From the UHGV virus genome UHGV-0385671: a DNA stretch of 42,417 bases; one strand, given 5' to 3'. Below the pieces are notes generated by a model. That model was not told the origin of the DNA and made no database searches. It saw only the letters and a list, made by a program, of their open reading frames with translations. Positions 9,160 to 14,574 of the stretch are shown one piece after another; within the stretch, counting starts at the first letter, position 1; each line of letters starts with the position of its first letter. Origin of the DNA: a virus. Position numbers and translations under genes: made by a program.

Positions 9160-9445
9160 CTTGTGATTCCTCATTCAGTTCACTTTAGTGGTTCGGCGGC
9201 TTCGACTTGTATTAATTAGACAGTGCTTCGCCGCACCCCAAAGGGAACTTACTGATCCGTATTGCCGACATCCTGTCCCGCCACGGTCCCGACGCATGGT
9301 TTAGAGTCGCGCCGTTCGACTTGTGGCTAAAGATACAATTTGAGTTGTATTGTGTAAACCACAAATATGGTATTTTGTAGGGTGTGAATACTACTTTATT
9401 GATATTTAAGTGAATTTAATTTGTAAGACTTTACAAATGGGGTAA

Positions 9446-9465
9446 GGGAGGCTGTTACGCCTCCC
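9446..9465 (-). terminator. Possible terminator hairpin downstream of the repressor gene
   Basis: 7-bp stem GGGAGGC/GCCTCCC with 6-nt loop 20 bp after the CI stop; trailing U-tract is weak. Confidence 0.3.
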
Positions 9466-9484
9466 GATATTTACGGTGGGAATA

Positions 9485-10108
9485 CTAACGTTTACGGCGG
9501 TAAATACGGTGTTCGATCATTACACCTATGATCTGTAAGTTCATATCTGCACTACGAAAAATAGGGTAATCAGGATTTAGGGGGATTAATTCAAAGTCGT
9601 CGATGCCGATTCCTAATGGGCGGTATTTTTTAAATGTAGCTTCGTGACCGTCGTTTTTGGCGACAACAAACTCCCCTGGTGCAGGACATAGATCAGGATC
9701 GATGATAACGATGTCTCCTTCTTTAAACTCTGGTTGCATGCTGTCGCCATCAATACGTAATGCGAAGCATGTTTCTGGAATGTCAGAGTCTGCCAAAATA
9801 TATTCAAATTCCCCTGTCAGATCTGTTATGTCTCTTGCTTCTGTAAGCTCTCCTGCCTGAACGTAACTTAATATAGGTATGCGTCTGGTACTTATCTCTG
9901 TGAGAGGCATAATATTTTTACCGTTCAGTAGCCAGTCTGGGCTACATTTCAAGGCCTTAGCCAAATCCAGAAGATTGCGTGGCTTTCTGGTTCGTCCACT
10001 TTCGATGGATTCTATGGATTGTTGGCTAACCCCTGCAGAATTCGCTACTTCCACTTGAGTCATTCCTAATTCCAAACGACGTGCTTTAAAACGGGCTGCG
10101 AGAGACAT
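9485..10108 (-). CDS. CI-like repressor: XRE HTH plus S24 (LexA-like) self-cleaving peptidase domain
   Basis: HTH QVEVANSAGVSQQSIESIESG; Ala-Gly cleavage site in VQAGEL; GDSM and KK catalytic dyad; AGGA SD upstream of ATG 10108 (ORF track start 10198 is probably too long). Confidence 0.9.
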   Translation of the reverse strand: MSLAARFKARRLELGMTQVEVANSAGVSQQSIESIESGRTRKPRNLLDLAKALKCSPDWLLNGKNIMPLTEISTRRIPILSYVQAGELTEARDITDLTGEFEYILADSDIPETCFALRIDGDSMQPEFKEGDIVIIDPDLCPAPGEFVVAKNDGHEATFKKYRPLGIGIDDFELIPLNPDYPIFRSADMNLQIIGVMIEHRIYRRKR

Positions 10109-10131
10109 GGGATTAGTCCTTCTGGGTTGTA

Positions 10132-10153
10132 TTAATGTGTATACCCACATTAA
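10132..10153. promoter_or_regulatory. Palindromic operator candidate (TTAATGTG-N6-CACATTAA) in the CI/Cro divergent promoter region
   Basis: Perfect 8-bp inverted arms with 6-bp spacer read directly. Confidence 0.5.
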
Positions 10154-10167
10154 AAACAATTTTTGTT

Positions 10168-10202
10168 GTATTTGACAAACCCCATTCGTTGTTGTCAAAT
10201 AC
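10168..10202. promoter_or_regulatory. Second inverted repeat (GTATTTGACAA ... TTGTCAAATAC) carrying TTGACA -35-like hexamers facing both directions
   Basis: 11-bp arms are exact reverse complements; each arm contains TTGACA. Confidence 0.5.
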
Positions 10203-10228
10203 CACTAAAATTGTATGAGGTAAAAGCA

Positions 10229-10441
10229 ATGACCTTAGCGACCCGAGTAAAAGAACGACGTAAAGAACTCAAAATGACGCAAGTTACGTTGGCTGAGCTC
10301 ACAGGAGTGAGCCAGCAGGCAATAAACAGAATTGAAAGTGGTGTTATTGCTCGACCACGTTATCTTCTTGAAATGTCTATAGCATTGGATTGCGACCCTA
10401 ATTGGCTGTTGTATGGCTCACAAAACGATAAAAAGGCTTAA
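10229..10441 (+). CDS. Cro-like XRE-family HTH regulator
   Basis: ATG 10229 after GAGG SD; HTH MTQVTLAELTGVSQQAINRIESG; divergent from the repressor. Confidence 0.8.
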   Translation: MTLATRVKERRKELKMTQVTLAELTGVSQQAINRIESGVIARPRYLLEMSIALDCDPNWLLYGSQNDKKA

Positions 10442-10444
10442 CCC

Positions 10445-12637
10445 ATGTCCGATAGCAAACCATGGGGAGCTACGCCTGATGAGTGGTTTCATTTCGACCT
10501 GGTATTGGGGAGAACTGATCATCTTCTCCCAGTTGTATGTAACCCCGGTGCGACCATATCCCCTGACAGTAAACTGAAAGCGCTGGGTAAGACGCCAAGT
10601 CGCTATAACCGGGACCGCCAGGTCACCGGTATTGCTCAATGGACCGGACATGTTGTTACTGAGCATGATTTTGCCCGCTGGTCGAATGAACCGGATTATG
10701 GCATCTGCGTGCGTACAGGCCATGGCTGGCTGGCGCTGGACTGCGATAGCGAAGATGAAGACATTCAGGCAGATATTCGCAAAACGCTTGTGCAACTTCT
10801 GGGGGAGTTGCCGCCGCGACGCTGGCGAGCAAACAGTAATAAGTGTCTGTATCTGCTGGCCGTTGATGGTGATTTCCGTAAGCGTATCCATCGCCTGGCG
10901 GGGGATATGGGCATTATCGAGTTGCTGGCGAACGGGCAGCAGTTCGTTGCCTGCGGTACGCACAGCAGCGGTGCGCGTATTGAATGGGACGGCGGTTTGC
11001 CGGATGAACCTCCGGCTATTACTGGTGAGCAGCTTGAAACGCTGTGGCAGCGCCTGGCTGAACAACTCCCTGTGTCGGTAACCACCGAAGCGGGCAACAC
11101 GAAGATGCGCGACCGATCAGCATTCACGCCCGGCGCGACGGATGATACAGCTGAATATCTTGATGCCAATGGCTGGACGCTGCTGGATGGCGCAAACGGT
11201 GAACGATATATCCGCTGTCCGTTTGAAGACGGCCACAGTAGCGGGGGCGACCCAACAAGTACAGTTTATTTTCCTGCGGGAACTGCGGGCTTTGAGCAGG
11301 GGCATTTTAAATGCCTACATGCCAGTTGCGCGCATCGTGATGACGGAGATTTCCTGAATGCCATCGGGATCCGCAACGACGATTTCGAAGATCTGACCAG
11401 CATCGAAGTGGCGGAACCTTTACCGCTGCCTGCTTTCGAGCGTGATAAATGGGGGCGTATCGAGGCAACCATCAGCAACGCAGCCAAAGCAGTAGTACGC
11501 CCTGATTTTGTGGACATCGATATTCGCTTTGACCAGTTCCGCGACGAAATCATGTTTGCCCCGGCAGGATCCGGACAATGGCGGGCATTCACCGATGCGG
11601 ATTATGCGCGCCTGCGCATCACGATGGAAAAGCGGGGATTTAAACCTGTTGGCCGTGAACTTATTCGCGATGTGGTGTTACTTGCAGCCGATGAACAACC
11701 ATTCGATTCAGCAATCACCTGGCTGAACGGACTGGAGTGGGATGGCGTGCCGCGCATCGAATGTTTCTACCATACGCACTTCGGTACCGCCGACACGCCT
11801 TATACCCGTGCGGTGTCTATGTACATGTGGACCGCGTTGGCGGGGAGAGTACTGGAGCCAGGCATCAAAGCGGATATGGTGCCGATCCTCGTTGGTCCGC
11901 AGGGCTGCGGTAAGTCTTCCGGAGTGGAGGCACTGAGCCCTGATCCTGCGTTTTTTACTGAAATCTCTTTTGCCGAAAAAGACGATGATCTCGCTCGAAA
12001 AATGCGTGGTCGGCTGGTGGCAGAGATTGGTGAACTGCGCGGACTTAATACCAAAGAGCTGGAGTCAATCAAAGCGTTTGTGACGCGTACTCACGAAAAC
12101 TGGATCCCGAAATACCGGGAGTTCGCCACCCAGTTTCCTCGTCGCCTGGTGTTCGTTGGTACCACCAATGAGGACGAATTCCTTGCGGACAAGACTGGTA
12201 ACCGTCGCTGGCTCCCCGTGGAAGTGTCGAAAGTCGACGTGAAAGCGATAAAAAGAGATCTCCTTTTACTTTGGGCTGAGGCTCGTGAGGTGTTTCAGCG
12301 TCTGGGGGGGATCCAGTTCCGTGAGGCTGAACAACTGGCAGCGAGTGTCCATGAACAGTACACCATCAAGGATGCTTGGCTTGAAACGGTAGAGAAATGG
12401 CTCGACACGCCAGACCTGATGACTAATGAACTTCCGCGAAATTGCGAATTTTTACGCGCAAGTGATGTTTTGCGTGATGCGATTGGGCTAAATCCTGACC
12501 GCATCGGAAAACGCGAAGAAATGCGAATTAGTAATGTTTTGCAAAATTGCGGGTATAAGCGTGCTCAAAGGCGAATTGGGGGGAAAATGACTCGAATTTT
12601 TGAGGCGGTGTCCCAACCTGTACCAGCCTCAAAATAG
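10445..12637 (+). CDS. Replication initiator: primase-polymerase N-terminal domain fused to a D5/VirE-like P-loop NTPase (helicase)
   Basis: 730 aa; Walker A VGPQGCGKSS; N-terminal region matches the bifunctional primase/polymerase pattern as I recall it; first gene of the rightward early operon after cro. Confidence 0.8.
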   Translation: MSDSKPWGATPDEWFHFDLVLGRTDHLLPVVCNPGATISPDSKLKALGKTPSRYNRDRQVTGIAQWTGHVVTEHDFARWSNEPDYGICVRTGHGWLALDCDSEDEDIQADIRKTLVQLLGELPPRRWRANSNKCLYLLAVDGDFRKRIHRLAGDMGIIELLANGQQFVACGTHSSGARIEWDGGLPDEPPAITGEQLETLWQRLAEQLPVSVTTEAGNTKMRDRSAFTPGATDDTAEYLDANGWTLLDGANGERYIRCPFEDGHSSGGDPTSTVYFPAGTAGFEQGHFKCLHASCAHRDDGDFLNAIGIRNDDFEDLTSIEVAEPLPLPAFERDKWGRIEATISNAAKAVVRPDFVDIDIRFDQFRDEIMFAPAGSGQWRAFTDADYARLRITMEKRGFKPVGRELIRDVVLLAADEQPFDSAITWLNGLEWDGVPRIECFYHTHFGTADTPYTRAVSMYMWTALAGRVLEPGIKADMVPILVGPQGCGKSSGVEALSPDPAFFTEISFAEKDDDLARKMRGRLVAEIGELRGLNTKELESIKAFVTRTHENWIPKYREFATQFPRRLVFVGTTNEDEFLADKTGNRRWLPVEVSKVDVKAIKRDLLLLWAEAREVFQRLGGIQFREAEQLAASVHEQYTIKDAWLETVEKWLDTPDLMTNELPRNCEFLRASDVLRDAIGLNPDRIGKREEMRISNVLQNCGYKRAQRRIGGKMTRIFEAVSQPVPASK

Positions 12638-12788
12638 AGGTTGGTACATTTTAACTAATTGAATTTAAAGGCAAGTACCAACTGTACCATCTGTACCAAC
12701 CTAATTACTAAGAACCCCATATATATAAGTCGCTTGGGGAAAAGGTTTGAAAAGAGCTGGTACAGGTGGGTACAGGTTGGTACAGGCC
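12619..12788. repeat. Iteron array and AT-rich spacer: putative origin of replication
   Basis: TGTACCA heptamer three times in direct orientation (12675..12700), three times inverted as GGTACAGG at exact 10-bp spacing (12759..12788), flanking a 58-bp AT-rich spacer; extra copies at 12619 and 12643. Confidence 0.6.
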
Positions 12789-12914
12789 GAACAAGTAATT
12801 TTTTGCACATAACAGCGTGTAATAAGCGAATCGGAACTGCGTTATCCACACCCACGGATAAACAAACGTGGTTCTCAGAAAATTTTTTCGTAGCAAAACG
12901 TAGAGGTCAGAGCT

Positions 12915-13349
12915 ATGCGTAATATTCAACAGGTTTTAGAGCGCTGGGGTGGCTGGGCTGCCAATAGCAACACCACAGTGAGCTGGGCTCCAATAGCGGC
13001 GGGATTTAAAGGGCTGGTAGTCAGCAGCTCGCCTGGCAGGCTGAGTTGCTGTGACGACGATGGCCTGATTATCGATGCTTGCGTCTGTCGGCTGCAGCAG
13101 GTCCGTAAGCCTGAGGAACTGGACGTCATTATGCTGTACTACGTCTACGGGTTAAGCAAACGTGAGATAGGGCGGCGGCGTCGCTGTTCTGAAGGATTTA
13201 TCCGCCAGCAGTTGCAGGTAGCTGAGGGATTCATTGAGGGGTGTCTCTGCATGCTGGGTGTGAGCCTTCAGATGGATCCTGAGGTCGAAATTCAAAGGGA
13301 CGAAAAAAGTATTAGTGCGCTACGCAAAAACTGCGCTACGCTGGTATGA
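12915..13349 (+). CDS. Q-like late-gene antiterminator
   Basis: Position between replication and lysis genes; recalled resemblance to the small Q antiterminator family (MR.IQ.VLERWG.WAA..., CCDDD, AEG.IEG motifs). Confidence 0.6.
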   Translation: MRNIQQVLERWGGWAANSNTTVSWAPIAAGFKGLVVSSSPGRLSCCDDDGLIIDACVCRLQQVRKPEELDVIMLYYVYGLSKREIGRRRRCSEGFIRQQLQVAEGFIEGCLCMLGVSLQMDPEVEIQRDEKSISALRKNCATLV

Positions 13350-13628
13350 GTTGAATTTCTGACCTCAACGAAGAGCTCCAAATCATTGGGGCTTTTTTAA
13401 TGCTCTATTCTCAGTAAAAGTTAATAAAACAGGGTTTTCGTCGCGAAAAAACGCTATGCAGTTTTTGCCCTTTTTTATGCACCTTTTATTCACTCGAATT
13501 TCGCCATTCTGGACCACTTAAGTTGATTAAATAGGCCTTTCATCGCAAATCTATTGCGAGCGGTGATCGTGTGGTTCCTATAACGTACATTATGTTAAAT
13601 AACCTCCTTTTTTAACAAATTTAACAAG

Positions 13629-13651
13629 GTTCGCTATGGCGAACTTTTTTT
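13629..13651 (+). terminator. Intrinsic terminator (tR'-like) between Q and the lysis cassette
   Basis: 6-bp stem GTTCGC/GCGAAC, 4-nt loop, followed by TTTTTTT. Confidence 0.7.
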
Positions 13652-13752
13652 GTATTCAGGGCCCACCGAAGGACGGCTCATAACCCAATCCTACGGGCGT
13701 ATACGCAGGGCCCGCCTTTCAACAACACCCCGTAATGGCGGAGGTGGGAAGT

Positions 13753-14094
13753 ATGAAAATGCACAATGCTCCTCATTCCTGGCCTGACTTACTGGAACTC
13801 TTACAAAGTTGGTGGCGTGGAGATACGCCGTTGGGCGCAGTGGTTATGTCAATTGTTATGGCTGGTTTGCGCATTGCCTATTTTGGCGGTGGCGGCGGCT
13901 GGAAACGAAAAACGCTTGAGATTTTGCTCTGTGGTGCTCTGACGCTGACCTTTGCATCCGCTCTTGAGTATGTTGGATGGCCTAAATCGCTTTCTGTTGC
14001 CATTGGTGGTGGTGTTGGGCTGATCGGTGTCGATGCTATTCGTGGGGCTGCAATGCGAGTAATCGGTAACAAGTTTGGTGGCTCTAAGGAGTAA
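13753..14094 (+). CDS. S: Holin, lambda S-like with dual-start Met-Lys-Met motif
   Basis: GGAGG SD 8 nt upstream of ATG 13753; MKM start; three hydrophobic segments; immediately upstream of endolysin. Confidence 0.8.
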   Translation: MKMHNAPHSWPDLLELLQSWWRGDTPLGAVVMSIVMAGLRIAYFGGGGGWKRKTLEILLCGALTLTFASALEYVGWPKSLSVAIGGGVGLIGVDAIRGAAMRVIGNKFGGSKE

Positions 14095-14097
14095 TTC

Positions 14098-14574
14098 ATG
14101 CAGACACTAAATTCCCAACGTAAAGCTTTCCTGGATATGGTGGCATGGTCAGAAGGAACGGATAACGGGCGACAACCGACACGTAATCACGGTTATGACG
14201 TTATCGTCGGAGGTGAGTTGTTCACTGATTACTCCGATCACCCTCGCAAACTTGTCACGCTAAACCCGAAGCTTAAATCAACAGCTGCAGGCCGGTATCA
14301 GCTTCTTTCACGCTGGTGGGATGCCTACCGCAAGCAGCTTGGCCTGAAAGATTTTTCGCCAGAAAGTCAGGACGCTGTGGCGCTGCAGCAGATTAAAGAG
14401 CGTGGCGCTTTACCGATGATTGACCGTGGCGATATTCGTCAGGCAATCGACCGTTGCAGCAATATCTGGGCGTCGTTACCTGGTGCAGGTTACGGTCAGT
14501 ATGAACATAAAATCGGTGACCTGATTTCCAAGTTTAAAGATGCTGGTGGGGTGGTAAATGAAGCTGACTTATAA
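14098..14574 (+). CDS. R: Endolysin, lambda R-type lytic transglycosylase
   Basis: 158 aa; near residue-for-residue match to my recollection of lambda R (QRKAFLDM.AWSEGTDNGRQ.TRNHGYDVIVGGELFTDYSDHPRKLVTLNPKLKST). Confidence 0.9.
   Translation: MQTLNSQRKAFLDMVAWSEGTDNGRQPTRNHGYDVIVGGELFTDYSDHPRKLVTLNPKLKSTAAGRYQLLSRWWDAYRKQLGLKDFSPESQDAVALQQIKERGALPMIDRGDIRQAIDRCSNIWASLPGAGYGQYEHKIGDLISKFKDAGGVVNEADL

What the first reader, a model, noticed from the sequence alone, without database searches (positions are those of the whole stretch)
12619..12788. Iteron-type putative origin immediately after the primase-helicase gene
TGTACCA occurs three times in direct orientation and three times inverted (as GGTACAGG at exactly 10-bp spacing), flanking a 58-bp AT-rich spacer, with two more copies overlapping the 3' end of the replication gene. 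This is the classic iterons plus DNA-unwinding-element architecture.
Basis: partly seen in the sequence, partly recalled or inferred. Interest (0 to 1): 0.55.

Follow-up and report, generated by a model that had tools for sequence, protein, structure and literature searches.

The report
Prophage replication origin with swappable iterons
The repeats just after the primase-helicase gene of this E. coli prophage are very probably its replication origin, of the kind known from staphylococcal and E. coli phage satellites, and related phages carry at least a dozen versions in which the repeat sequence and a few residues at the end of the helicase change together.

Summary
Nine copies of TGTACCAAC (at most 1 mismatch) lie in 12609-12786, against five in the other 42 kb (Poisson P about 5e-10).

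The layout is:
- two direct copies plus one inverted copy around the stop codon of the 730-aa gene;
- a 25-bp stretch of 20% GC;
- three direct copies 9 bp apart;
- a 56-bp spacer holding an ATATATATAA tract;
- three inverted copies 10 bp apart.

The gene encodes Prim-Pol, a VapE/SF3 helicase and a C-terminal winged helix. Its closest solved relative is SaPI1 Rep, a self-loading initiator helicase whose origin has this same layout.

The main evidence is comparative. In 75 related IMG/VR loci the layout is constant. The repeat sequence falls into 10 classes, each tied to one or a few closely similar variants of the motif GKxx[R/K]x[W/F] on the wing of the winged helix. One relative (L007) has 97-98% identical immunity and primase DNA up to 60 nt before the stop, yet all its repeats differ. 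Repeat class is independent of cI/cro and of the downstream gene. The rule predicted the repeats in independent genomes (5 of 5) and in a reverse search (20 of 20).

I read this as a SaPI/PICI-type origin inside a full-size prophage: a new member of a known kind. Replication itself was not tested.

The parts
10445..12637 (+). Gene for the 730-aa primase-helicase-initiator. Domains: Prim-Pol (aa 53-185), VapE/SF3 helicase (aa 427-639), C-terminal winged helix (aa ~644-721), disordered tail (aa 722-730).
   Evidence: Pfam VapE-like E 2.3e-60. Prim-Pol PF09250 E 3.6e-10. phmmer to 7PDS SaPI1 Rep1 E 8e-34. AF2 model pLDDT 93.5. Foldseek top hit 7PDS, TMq 0.78.
12584..12607 (+). Codons for the second strand of the wing (K714-M-T-R-I-F-E-A721). 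This is the proposed specificity determinant, GKxx[R/K]x[W/F].
   Evidence: Strands 285-292 and 295-302 of the model correspond to aa 704-711 and 714-721. The motif tracks the iteron class in 75 loci. The L007-versus-window identity break starts about 60 nt before the stop.
12609..12628 (+). Outer-left iterons 1 and 2, direct (TGTCCCAACC degenerate, TGTACCAGCC). They lie inside the ORF and encode the tail S-Q-P-V-P-A.
   Evidence: The equivalent copies in other classes likewise encode the tail or hold the stop codon.
12639..12648 (-). Outer-left iteron 3, inverted (GGTTGGTACA). With 12619-12630 it forms a 12-bp palindrome around the stop codon.
   Evidence: Inverted repeat I9. Terminator-like site 12619-12648. 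RNA hairpin -23.5 kcal/mol, z -3.6. The direct-direct-inverted arrangement is conserved as far as a Burkholderiales MAG.
12649..12673 (.). First AT-rich stretch (20% GC), between the outer and inner left iteron sets.
   Evidence: The sequence ttttaactaattgaatttaaagg is conserved in most enterobacterial classes.
12674..12701 (+). Inner-left iteron triple, direct, 9-bp spacing (AGTACCAAC TGTACCATC TGTACCAACC).
   Evidence: Family D5. Three head-to-tail 9-mers are found in every class.
12702..12757 (.). Central spacer, the proposed unwinding element. It holds CCCCA (12715-12719), ATATATATAA (12719-12728), TGGGG (12735-12739) and GGAAAAGGTT (12738-12747). GC is 36%.
   Evidence: The spacer sequence is conserved across iteron classes while the iterons differ. 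The (TA)n length varies in 2-bp steps among near-identical loci. The GGA[AG]A[AG]?GGTT motif is present in 70 of 75 loci and occurs once in the window.
12758..12786 (-). Right iteron triple, inverted, 10-bp spacing (TGGTACAGGT GGGTACAGGT TGGTACAGG). The middle copy is degenerate.
   Evidence: Three or four inverted copies are found in every class, and the middle copy is degenerate in several classes.
12789..12807 (.). Conserved right-flank element GAACAAGTAATTTTTTGCA, of unknown role. It may be part of the origin or a promoter element.
   Evidence: Variants of GTAATTT[A/T]TTGCA or TTTTTGCA lie 15-25 nt right of the last iteron in nearly all loci, including YeP4 and the Burkholderiales MAG.

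Best explanation
The region 12609-12807 is the vegetative replication origin of this E. coli prophage. It is of the SaPI/PICI Pri-Rep type.

The adjacent gene encodes one polypeptide that is primase (Prim-Pol), replicative SF3/VapE helicase and origin-binding initiator (C-terminal winged helix).

Inferred mechanism, by analogy with SaPI Rep:
- After induction the protein is made from the early rightward operon.
- Its winged helices bind the 9-10-bp iterons. Specificity comes mainly from the second beta-strand of the wing (K714-MTRIF-719 here).
- Hexamers assemble on the two oppositely oriented triples either side of the conserved (TA)n spacer.
- The spacer melts, the helicases load themselves, and the Prim-Pol domain primes synthesis by the host polymerase.

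The outer direct-direct-inverted set around the stop codon is a third binding site for the same protein, with an auxiliary or regulatory role.

Shown here:
- the repeats and their enrichment;
- the domain make-up and the homology to SaPI Rep;
- the conserved layout;
- the strict co-variation of iteron sequence with the wing motif, independent of all neighbouring modules.

Inferred, not shown: binding, melting, helicase loading and replication.
For: 1. Enrichment. Nine of 14 window hits to TGTACCAAC (at most 1 mismatch) lie in 176 bp, P about 5e-10.

2. Protein. It has VapE and Prim-Pol. Its nearest solved structure is SaPI1 Rep1 (7PDS), by sequence E 8e-34 and by fold E 6.5e-22, TMq 0.78 over 347 columns. 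The C-terminus models as helix-helix-helix-beta-hairpin at pLDDT above 90.

3. Literature. SaPI Reps bind iterons through a C-terminal winged helix. The iterons lie immediately downstream of rep, split by an AT-rich centre, with the two sides in opposite orientation (PMC9371898). E. coli PICIs have the same layout, and the EcCICFT073 pri-rep-ori segment drives plasmid replication (PMC6092414).

4. Layout. It is conserved in APSE-2, Yersinia phage YeP4 and 75 IMG/VR loci, with different iteron sequences.

5. Covariation. There are ten iteron classes, each tied to its own variant or close variants of the wing motif, across 75 loci.

6. Natural swap. Between L007 and the window, cI-cro is 97% identical and the primase 98% identical up to -60 nt. 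The cassette from -60 to +155 is 59% identical, and identity returns to 93-100% up to the Q start.

7. Independence from neighbours. The class is independent of cI/cro: the same class occurs with 32-39% identical immunity regions. It is also independent of the downstream gene, Q or HTH.

8. Prediction tests. In GTDB genomes 5 of 5 known wings had the predicted iterons. New wings came with new or related iterons, including a Burkholderiales MAG at 51% protein identity with the same layout. In the reverse search of all IMG/VR for the class-A triple, 20 of 20 hits lie just after a gene ending GKMTRIF.

9. Selection within class A. Iteron cores are invariant in 44 of 47 columns, against 98 of 135 non-core columns (Fisher P 0.002).
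Against: - There is no experimental or marker-frequency evidence.
- Cumulative GC skew follows transcription direction and shows no inflection at 12.7 kb.
- The central spacer is only moderately AT-rich (36% GC), and the window has the shortest (TA) tract of its class.
- The fold search with the isolated C-terminal domain gave only weak matches to winged-helix proteins, E 0.03 or worse.
- The outer inverted pair is also a good RNA hairpin followed by UUUU, so part of the array may act in transcription.
- Covariation proves a shared specificity unit, not replication as the function.
- The wing-to-iteron relation is not strictly one-to-one in the wider set: SQRVY and VCRVW both go with TGTAACAACC.
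Confidence: 0.8

Rival explanations
1. The repeats are bound by the primase-helicase C-terminal domain, but their main job is transcriptional. In this reading the hairpin at the stop codon terminates the early transcript, and the bound protein acts as a roadblock or autoregulator that times expression of the late regulator (Q) just downstream. This could also coexist with origin function.
For: The array lies between the early operon and Q. The palindrome 12619-12648 scores as a terminator-like site and folds at -23.5 kcal/mol, z -3.6, followed by UUUU. The direct-direct-inverted set at the gene end is conserved in all classes.
Against: The T-run after the hairpin is absent in class B and in most class G loci, such as L035 and L048 (accttgcag..., acaaaaacc...). 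The array is unchanged whether Q or an unrelated HTH gene follows. The two opposed triples around a (TA)n tract have no obvious transcriptional logic, but they match the SaPI origin layout.
Confidence: 0.1
2. The repeats are operators for another DNA-binding protein of the phage (CI, Cro, Q or the alternative HTH protein) and not for the primase-helicase.
For: Short repeated inverted sites near regulatory genes are typical operators. An HTH gene or Q lies immediately downstream.
Against: The cI-cro intergenic operators are TATTTGACAA / TTGTCAAATA, which are unrelated to the iterons. Identical iteron classes occur with unrelated cI-cro regions (32-39% identity), and different classes occur with 97% identical cI-cro. 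The class is independent of whether Q or the HTH gene follows. The class tracks only the last roughly 20 codons of the primase-helicase.
Confidence: 0.03
3. The region encodes a small protein (like 'P4' annotated over the equivalent region of APSE phages) or a structured RNA, and the repeats are incidental to that.
For: ORFs of 66-87 codons overlap the region on both strands. APSE-2 annotates a 73-codon 'P4' gene there.
Against: The (TA)n tract inside these ORFs varies in 2-bp steps among near-identical loci (run lengths 11, 13 and 17 nt in class B, and several lengths in class A), which shifts any reading frame. The whole cassette is replaced between classes while the layout is kept. There is no Rfam match at E up to 1.
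Confidence: 0.02

Closest known systems
SaPI / PICI Pri-Rep-ori replicons (SaPI1, SaPIbov1, SaPI5; E. coli EcCICFT073)
   Same: - The initiator is a self-loading SF3/VapE helicase with a C-terminal winged helix, here fused to a primase as in SaPI5.
- The origin lies immediately 3' of the gene.
- Two sets of short iterons in opposite orientation flank an AT-rich centre.
- The initiator and its iterons form cognate specificity pairs.
Sources: PMC9371898 and PMC6092414. Homology was measured here.
   Different: - The host element is a full-size prophage of about 36-42 kb with its own lysis and structural genes, not a satellite. YeP4 and APSE are isolated phages with the same module.
- The iterons are 9-10 bp, not 5-6 bp.
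- There is an extra direct-direct-inverted set across the stop codon, so iteron DNA also encodes the protein's tail.
- The central spacer is a conserved sequence, (TA)n plus GGAAAGGTT, not just AT-rich DNA.
Satellite phage P4 alpha protein with ori and crr
   Same: One polypeptide combines a primase, an SF3-type helicase and a C-terminal origin-binding domain. It binds short repeats (from my own knowledge, octamers of the TGTTCACC type) in direct and inverted orientation.
   Different: The P4 primase is of a different type (from my own knowledge), whereas this one is a Prim-Pol/AEP domain. P4 needs a second, distant repeat cluster (crr). No second cluster of the iteron exists in this window. 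No P4 alpha structure appeared among the fold or sequence matches.
Archaeal plasmid pRN1 ORF904 replicon
   Same: The domain order is the same: Prim-Pol then SF3 helicase. The essential cis element lies within 166 bp directly downstream of the replication gene (abstract of PMC4234260, seen; PMC2777425 listed).
   Different: It is an archaeal plasmid. I did not examine whether it has comparable opposed iteron triples or whether its sequence is related.
Lambdoid O/ori-lambda and iteron plasmids (RepA, pi, TrfA)
   Same: The general logic is shared: initiator-specific iterons next to an AT-rich region, some iterons overlapping the initiator's own gene, and initiator and iterons exchanged together as a specificity module among related phages.
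   Different: Those initiators are not helicases and must recruit host DnaB (through P or DnaA/DnaC), and their iterons are 17-22 bp. Here there is no O/P pair. The one DnaA box nearby (12842-12850) is not conserved with the array.

Membership tests
SaPI/PICI-type Pri-Rep origin | Origin placed immediately 3' of the initiator (rep or pri-rep) gene | tested here: met
   The iterons run from 29 nt before to 149 nt after the stop codon at 12635-12637. The position is the same in all related loci.
SaPI/PICI-type Pri-Rep origin | Two sets of iterons in opposite orientation flanking an AT-rich region | tested here: met
   A direct triple at 12674-12701 and an inverted triple at 12758-12786 flank a 56-bp spacer of 36% GC that holds ATATATATAA.
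SaPI/PICI-type Pri-Rep origin | Initiator homologous to SaPI Rep (SF3/VapE self-loading helicase) | tested here: met
   phmmer to 7PDS gives E 8e-34 over aa 393-657. Foldseek gives E 6.5e-22, TMq 0.78.
SaPI/PICI-type Pri-Rep origin | C-terminal winged-helix domain that reads the iterons | tested here: inconclusive
   The model has winged-helix topology, three helices plus a beta hairpin, at pLDDT above 90. The isolated domain matches winged-helix proteins only weakly, E 0.03 or worse. Contact with DNA was not tested.
SaPI/PICI-type Pri-Rep origin | Cognate specificity between initiator and its own iterons | tested here: met
   This was tested by covariation only. Ten classes in 75 loci each go with their own wing-motif variant or variants. 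A cassette swap occurs in a 97-98% identical background. Predictions held 5 of 5 and 20 of 20.
SaPI/PICI-type Pri-Rep origin | The gene-plus-origin segment drives autonomous replication; the protein binds and melts the origin | not testable with these tools
   This needs cloning, band-shift and footprinting experiments.
Phage-inducible chromosomal island (the element type, not the replicon) | Small satellite island lacking its own structural and lysis genes | tested here: not met
   The window carries Q, a holin and a long run of + strand ORFs from about 14 to 37 kb that look like virion genes but were not individually checked. Relatives are 35-45-kb viral contigs and isolated phages.
P4 alpha / ori-crr | Second distant cis-required repeat cluster (crr) | tested here: not met
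   The only hits to the iteron outside 12609-12786 are five scattered single copies.
Iteron plasmid / DnaA-dependent origin | Conserved DnaA boxes as part of the origin | tested here: not met
   A perfect TTATCCACA lies at 12842-12850, but it is present in only 20 of 76 loci, those examined being of the Q-type downstream module.
Lambda-type origin | O-type initiator plus P-type helicase loader | tested here: not met
   The early rightward operon holds only an HTH gene and the 730-aa primase-helicase before Q.

The most novel reading that the evidence does not exclude
The last roughly 8 structured residues of the initiator (the second strand of the winged-helix wing, GKxx[R/K]x[W/F]) and all 9-10 iterons form a single recombination unit of about 220 bp, because the first iterons overlap the stop codon. 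This unit has been swapped or stepwise co-evolved into at least 12 specificities on otherwise near-identical phages.

The natural series gives a readable recognition code. F or Y at the aromatic position goes with ...CAAC and W with ...CCAC in all but one class, and intermediates such as class F keep a mixture of old and new iterons. Its biological role would be to give co-resident prophages and satellites private origins.

It would also show that the 'PICI-only' origin layout is a general phage replicon, spread from Enterobacterales to Burkholderiales.
Probability: 0.5. Interest if true: 0.6.

Novelty: new member of a known kind. Interest (0 to 1): 0.45.

Why it matters
- **Origin assignment.** The result gives a concrete, testable origin and initiator to a widespread group of enterobacterial prophages. 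In one search, 42 of 5,426 complete E. coli genomes carry at least 80% of this 4.8-kb module. Relatives include the APSE phages of aphid symbionts and hosts in Xenorhabdus, Morganella, Arsenophonus and Burkholderiales. I found no paper in the searched library that describes an origin for this group.
[quoted passage not shown] That bears on where satellite replicons came from.
- **Specificity series.** The natural set of matched wing and iteron variants in near-isogenic backgrounds is a ready-made data set for working out how a winged helix reads DNA, and for building orthogonal replicons.
- **Annotation.** The 'P4' gene annotated in APSE genomes probably lies over non-coding origin DNA.

Tried and rejected
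- **GC skew.** It follows gene orientation and has no inflection at the site, so it is uninformative.
- **Intrinsic terminator as the main explanation.** The hairpin is real. The T-run is missing in class B and in most class G loci, such as L035 and L048, so I kept this only as a minor, non-exclusive rival.
- **CI/Cro operator idea.** The operators in the cI-cro gap are TATTTGACAA-type, and immunity regions assort independently of iteron class.
- **DnaA-dependent origin.** The perfect DnaA box at 12842-12850 travels with the Q-type downstream module, not with the iterons.
- **Known RNA family.** There is no Rfam match.
- **Coding ORF over the region.** It is incompatible with the (TA)n length changes.
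- **Fold search with the isolated C-terminal domain.** It returned only weak winged-helix matches. P4 alpha and plasmid Rep structures did not appear.
- **Sigma-70 promoter scan.** It found nothing between the iterons and Q. By eye, the conserved TTGCA element has no suitably spaced -10.
- **Iteron arrays without the gene.** I looked for origin-only elements that might parasitise the initiator. All 20 IMG/VR hits to the class-A triple have the cognate gene.
- **Literature.** No description of this origin was found. The APSE comparative paper used only an automatic origin predictor.
Full report
**1. What is in the sequence**

The window is an E. coli prophage. The interval 9400-14200 is 100% identical to strain S1-IND-01-A, and 42 of 5,426 complete genomes hold at least 80% of it. 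Gene order around the finding:
- an S24/LexA-type repressor, 9485-10198 (-);
- a Cro-like HTH gene (+);
- a 730-aa ORF, 10445-12637 (+);
- a 277-bp gap;
- antiterminator Q, 12915-13349;
- a holin.

The repeats sit at the end of the 730-aa ORF and in the first half of the gap. Exact TGTACCA occurs 9 times in the window, 6 of them in 12619-12784. The fuller unit TGTACCAAC with at most 1 mismatch occurs 14 times, 9 of them in 12609-12784. For the 7-mer with at most 1 mismatch the Poisson probability of the cluster is 5e-10.

The order of elements is:
- TGTCCCAACC and TGTACCAGCC, direct, inside the ORF;
- the TAG stop codon;
- GGTTGGTACA, inverted;
- 25 bp of 20% GC;
- AGTACCAAC, TGTACCATC and TGTACCAACC, direct, 9-bp spacing;
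- a 56-bp spacer (36% GC, window 49%) with CCCCA-ATATATATAA-...-TGGGG-GGAAAAGGTT;
- TGGTACAGGT, GGGTACAGGT and TGGTACAGG, inverted, 10-bp spacing.

**2. The neighbouring protein**

The 730-aa protein has three recognisable parts:
- a Prim-Pol primase domain, aa 53-185, E 3.6e-10;
- a VapE/SF3 helicase domain, aa 427-639, E 2.3e-60;
- a C-terminal domain that AlphaFold models with high confidence as three helices followed by a beta hairpin, aa 644-721, which is the winged-helix topology. The last nine residues are disordered.

The only solved structure found by sequence is 7PDS, Rep1 of the staphylococcal island SaPI1 (E 8e-34). It is also the top fold match (E 6.5e-22, TMq 0.78, 347 aligned columns). 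It is followed by other Prim-Pol/SF3 helicases: NrS-1, ASFV PrimPol and poxvirus D5/E5. The isolated C-terminal domain matched winged-helix proteins only weakly (E 0.03 or worse), so the fold class is plausible but not proven by that search.

**3. What is known about that family**

PMC9371898 states the following about SaPI Reps:
- They are self-loading helicases that also act as initiators through a C-terminal winged helix.
- That domain recognises short iterons located immediately downstream of the rep ORF.
- The origin has an AT-rich centre with iterons on each side pointing in opposite directions.

PMC6092414 shows the same origin layout in E. coli PICIs. [quoted passage not shown] The window matches this layout feature by feature.

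**4. Comparative test**

*First relatives.* A distant DNA search found APSE phages of Hamiltonella and Yersinia phages YeP4-6. APSE-2 (cI, cro, P3, 'P4', Q) and YeP4 have the same gene order and the same repeat layout after the primase gene. Their repeat sequences differ: TGTAACAACC in APSE-2 and AGACAACCT in YeP4.

*IMG/VR set.* I fetched 80 IMG/VR loci encoding 71-100% identical proteins. In the 75 loci with enough downstream DNA, the layout is constant and the central spacer (…AACCCCATATATATATATAAGTCG.TT.GGGGAAAGGTTAGAAAA…) is conserved. The iterons fall into discrete classes:

| Iteron | Wing motif |
|---|---|
| TGTACCAAC | GKMTRIF |
| TGGAACCAC | GKK[C/S/R]K[V/I/L]W |
| TGTCCCAAC | GKKMRIF |
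| TGTAACCAC | GKVQRVW |
| TGTTACCAC | GKLMKVW |
| TGTATCCAC | GKVLKVW |
| AGACAACC | GKQQR[V/I]F |
| AGACCACC | GKQIRVW |
| TGTCCC[C/T]AC | GKKQRIW |
| TGTAACAAC (APSE-2) | GKVCRVW |

*Where the motif sits.* In the model this motif is the second strand of the wing (aa 714-721). The residues after it in classes A-C (for example VSQPVPASK) are translated from the first iterons themselves, so their covariation is trivial. In classes D-G the stop codon lies inside the first iteron.

*Natural swap.* Locus L007 is 97% identical to the window over cI-cro and 98% over the primase gene, up to 60 nt before the stop. It is 59% identical from -60 to +155, where every iteron is changed but the spacer is kept. 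It is again 93-100% identical up to the start of Q.

*Independence from neighbours.* The L007 iteron class also occurs with unrelated immunity regions (32-39% identity). Several classes occur with either Q or a different HTH gene downstream. The repeats are therefore linked only to the C-terminus of the primase-helicase. The cI-cro operators are TATTTGACAA-type.

*Selection.* Within class A the iteron cores are more conserved than the linkers: 44 of 47 against 98 of 135 invariant columns, P 0.002.

**5. Independent checks of the rule**

*GTDB genomes.* Loci with wings already seen, or differing from one by a single residue, had the predicted iterons:
- Trabulsiella, KCKLW with GGAACCAC;
- Morganella and Phlomobacter, QQRVF with AGACAACC;
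- Arsenophonus, VCRVW with TGTAACAACC;
- Xenorhabdus, VTRIF with TGTACCAAC.

Loci with new wings had new or related iterons:
- Pluralibacter, MTKAW with TG[T/A]AGCCAC;
- Xenorhabdus, SQRVY with TGTAACAACC;
- Arsenophonus, QTRVF with AAGACAACC.

A Burkholderiales MAG whose protein is only 51% identical has nine copies of TGTCACCAC in the same direct-direct-inverted / triple / spacer / inverted layout.

*Reverse search.* Scanning all of IMG/VR for the class-A triple gave 20 loci. In all 20 the array directly follows a gene ending GKMTRIF, including a backbone only 77% identical to the window's protein.

*Limits of the rule.* The relation is many-to-one in places: SQRVY and VCRVW share an iteron. 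The aromatic residue correlates with one base (F or Y with CAAC, W with CCAC) in all but one class. This is a lead, not a demonstrated code.

*More distant relatives.* VapE genes at about 50% identity, without Prim-Pol, sit in int-alpA-vapE islands. They show a reduced version of the layout: two GATACC, about 65-70 bp of very AT-rich DNA, then GGTATC.

**6. Rivals**

- *Terminator or roadblock.* The 12619-12648 palindrome folds well as RNA (-23.5 kcal/mol, z -3.6) and is followed by four U. The T-run is not conserved across classes, and the array does not depend on which gene follows. This may be a secondary function (confidence 0.1).
- *Operators for another regulator.* Excluded by the assortment data (0.03).
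- *Small ORF or RNA.* The (TA)n tract changes length in 2-bp steps among near-identical loci, and there is no Rfam hit (0.02).
- *Chance.* Excluded.

**7. Mechanism and confidence**

I commit to a SaPI/PICI-type origin with confidence 0.8. The inferred steps are:
- The winged helices of the primase-helicase bind the iterons.
- Hexamers assemble on the opposed triples.
- The (TA)n spacer melts.
- The helicase loads itself and the Prim-Pol domain primes.

The repeats, the homology and the specificity linkage are shown. Binding, melting and replication are inferred by analogy.

Four features remain unexplained:
- the role of the outer set around the stop codon, which is mirrored on the right side in APSE-2;
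- the conserved GGAAAGGTT motif;
- the right-flank GTAATTTTTTGCA element;
- the systematically degenerate middle copy of the right triple.

**8. Novelty**

The kind of system is known. What is new:
- its presence as the replicon of full-size temperate phages in Enterobacterales and beyond;
- the three-part iteron layout that overlaps the initiator's stop codon;
- the documented series of at least 12 matched specificities exchanged as a cassette of about 220 bp.

No paper in the searched library pairs VapE with iterons, and none was found describing an origin for APSE-type phages. I rate it a new member of a known kind, interest 0.45.

Noticed in passing
window 12842-12850 (within 12842-12863): A perfect DnaA-box consensus TTATCCACA sits about 55 bp right of the last iteron, inside an inverted repeat TTATCC-N8-GGATAA. 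It is present in only 20 of 76 related loci; the carriers whose sequence was examined have the Q-type downstream module. It therefore belongs to the region upstream of Q, not to the iteron cassette.
   Followed up: partly
window 12789-12807: The element GAACAAGTAATTTTTTGCA lies directly right of the iterons. Variants (GTAATTT[A/T]TTGCA or TTTTTGCA) are kept in nearly all loci, whichever gene follows, and also in YeP4 and a Burkholderiales MAG. No well-spaced -10 hexamer follows it, and its role is unknown.
   Followed up: partly
window 12738-12747: The motif GGAAAAGGTT lies between the (TA)n tract and the right iterons. A match to GGA[AG]A[AG]?GGTT is present in 70 of 75 loci and in the Burkholderiales MAG, and occurs only once in the whole window. 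It could be a priming site or a host-factor site.
   Followed up: partly
window 12719-12728; L003-L082: The (TA)n tract behaves like a microsatellite, with several different lengths among near-identical loci. The window has the shortest tract of its class.
   Followed up: partly
L001 3932-4153 (APSE-2 gene 'P4'): The 73-codon 'conserved hypothetical protein P4' annotated in APSE phages lies over the iteron/(TA)n region between the primase gene and Q. It is probably not a gene.
   Followed up: partly
L031, L032, L033, L039, L046 (class F); L094: These loci mix two iteron types. The inner copies are TGTATCCAC, but the copies at the stop codon and the middle right copy are TGTAACCAC (the class D type). 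The wing is VLKVW, against VQRVW in class D. This looks like an intermediate in stepwise co-evolution of protein and sites.
   Followed up: partly
L028, L037, L030, L048, L053 about +290 nt after the primase stop; L002 4517-4753: In many relatives Q is replaced at the same position by a small HTH gene (MPVVATFKTDWFRVINDITRSGIPLQEIARELDVSKSAI...). Otherwise similar phages therefore use alternative late regulators.
   Followed up: no
window 13626-13647: A terminator-like hairpin with a T-run (AAGGTTCGCTATGGCGAACTTT TTTTGT) lies between Q and the holin gene. It may be the terminator on which Q acts.
   Followed up: no
window 10160-10210: The cI-cro gap holds inverted copies of TATTTGACAA / TTGTCAAATA, the likely immunity operators. 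They are unrelated to the iterons.
   Followed up: partly
L083, L084, L085: VapE helicases about 50% identical and lacking the Prim-Pol domain sit in minimal integrase-AlpA-VapE islands. In L084 and L085 a short GATACC / AT-rich / GGTATC arrangement follows the gene, which looks like a reduced satellite-type origin. No comparable arrangement was evident in L083.
   Followed up: partly
L001 (APSE-2) 4330-3990 on the minus strand: In APSE-2 the array is fully symmetrical. A second outer set (one direct plus two inverted copies) follows the right triple. The E. coli phages have the outer set only on the left.
   Followed up: no
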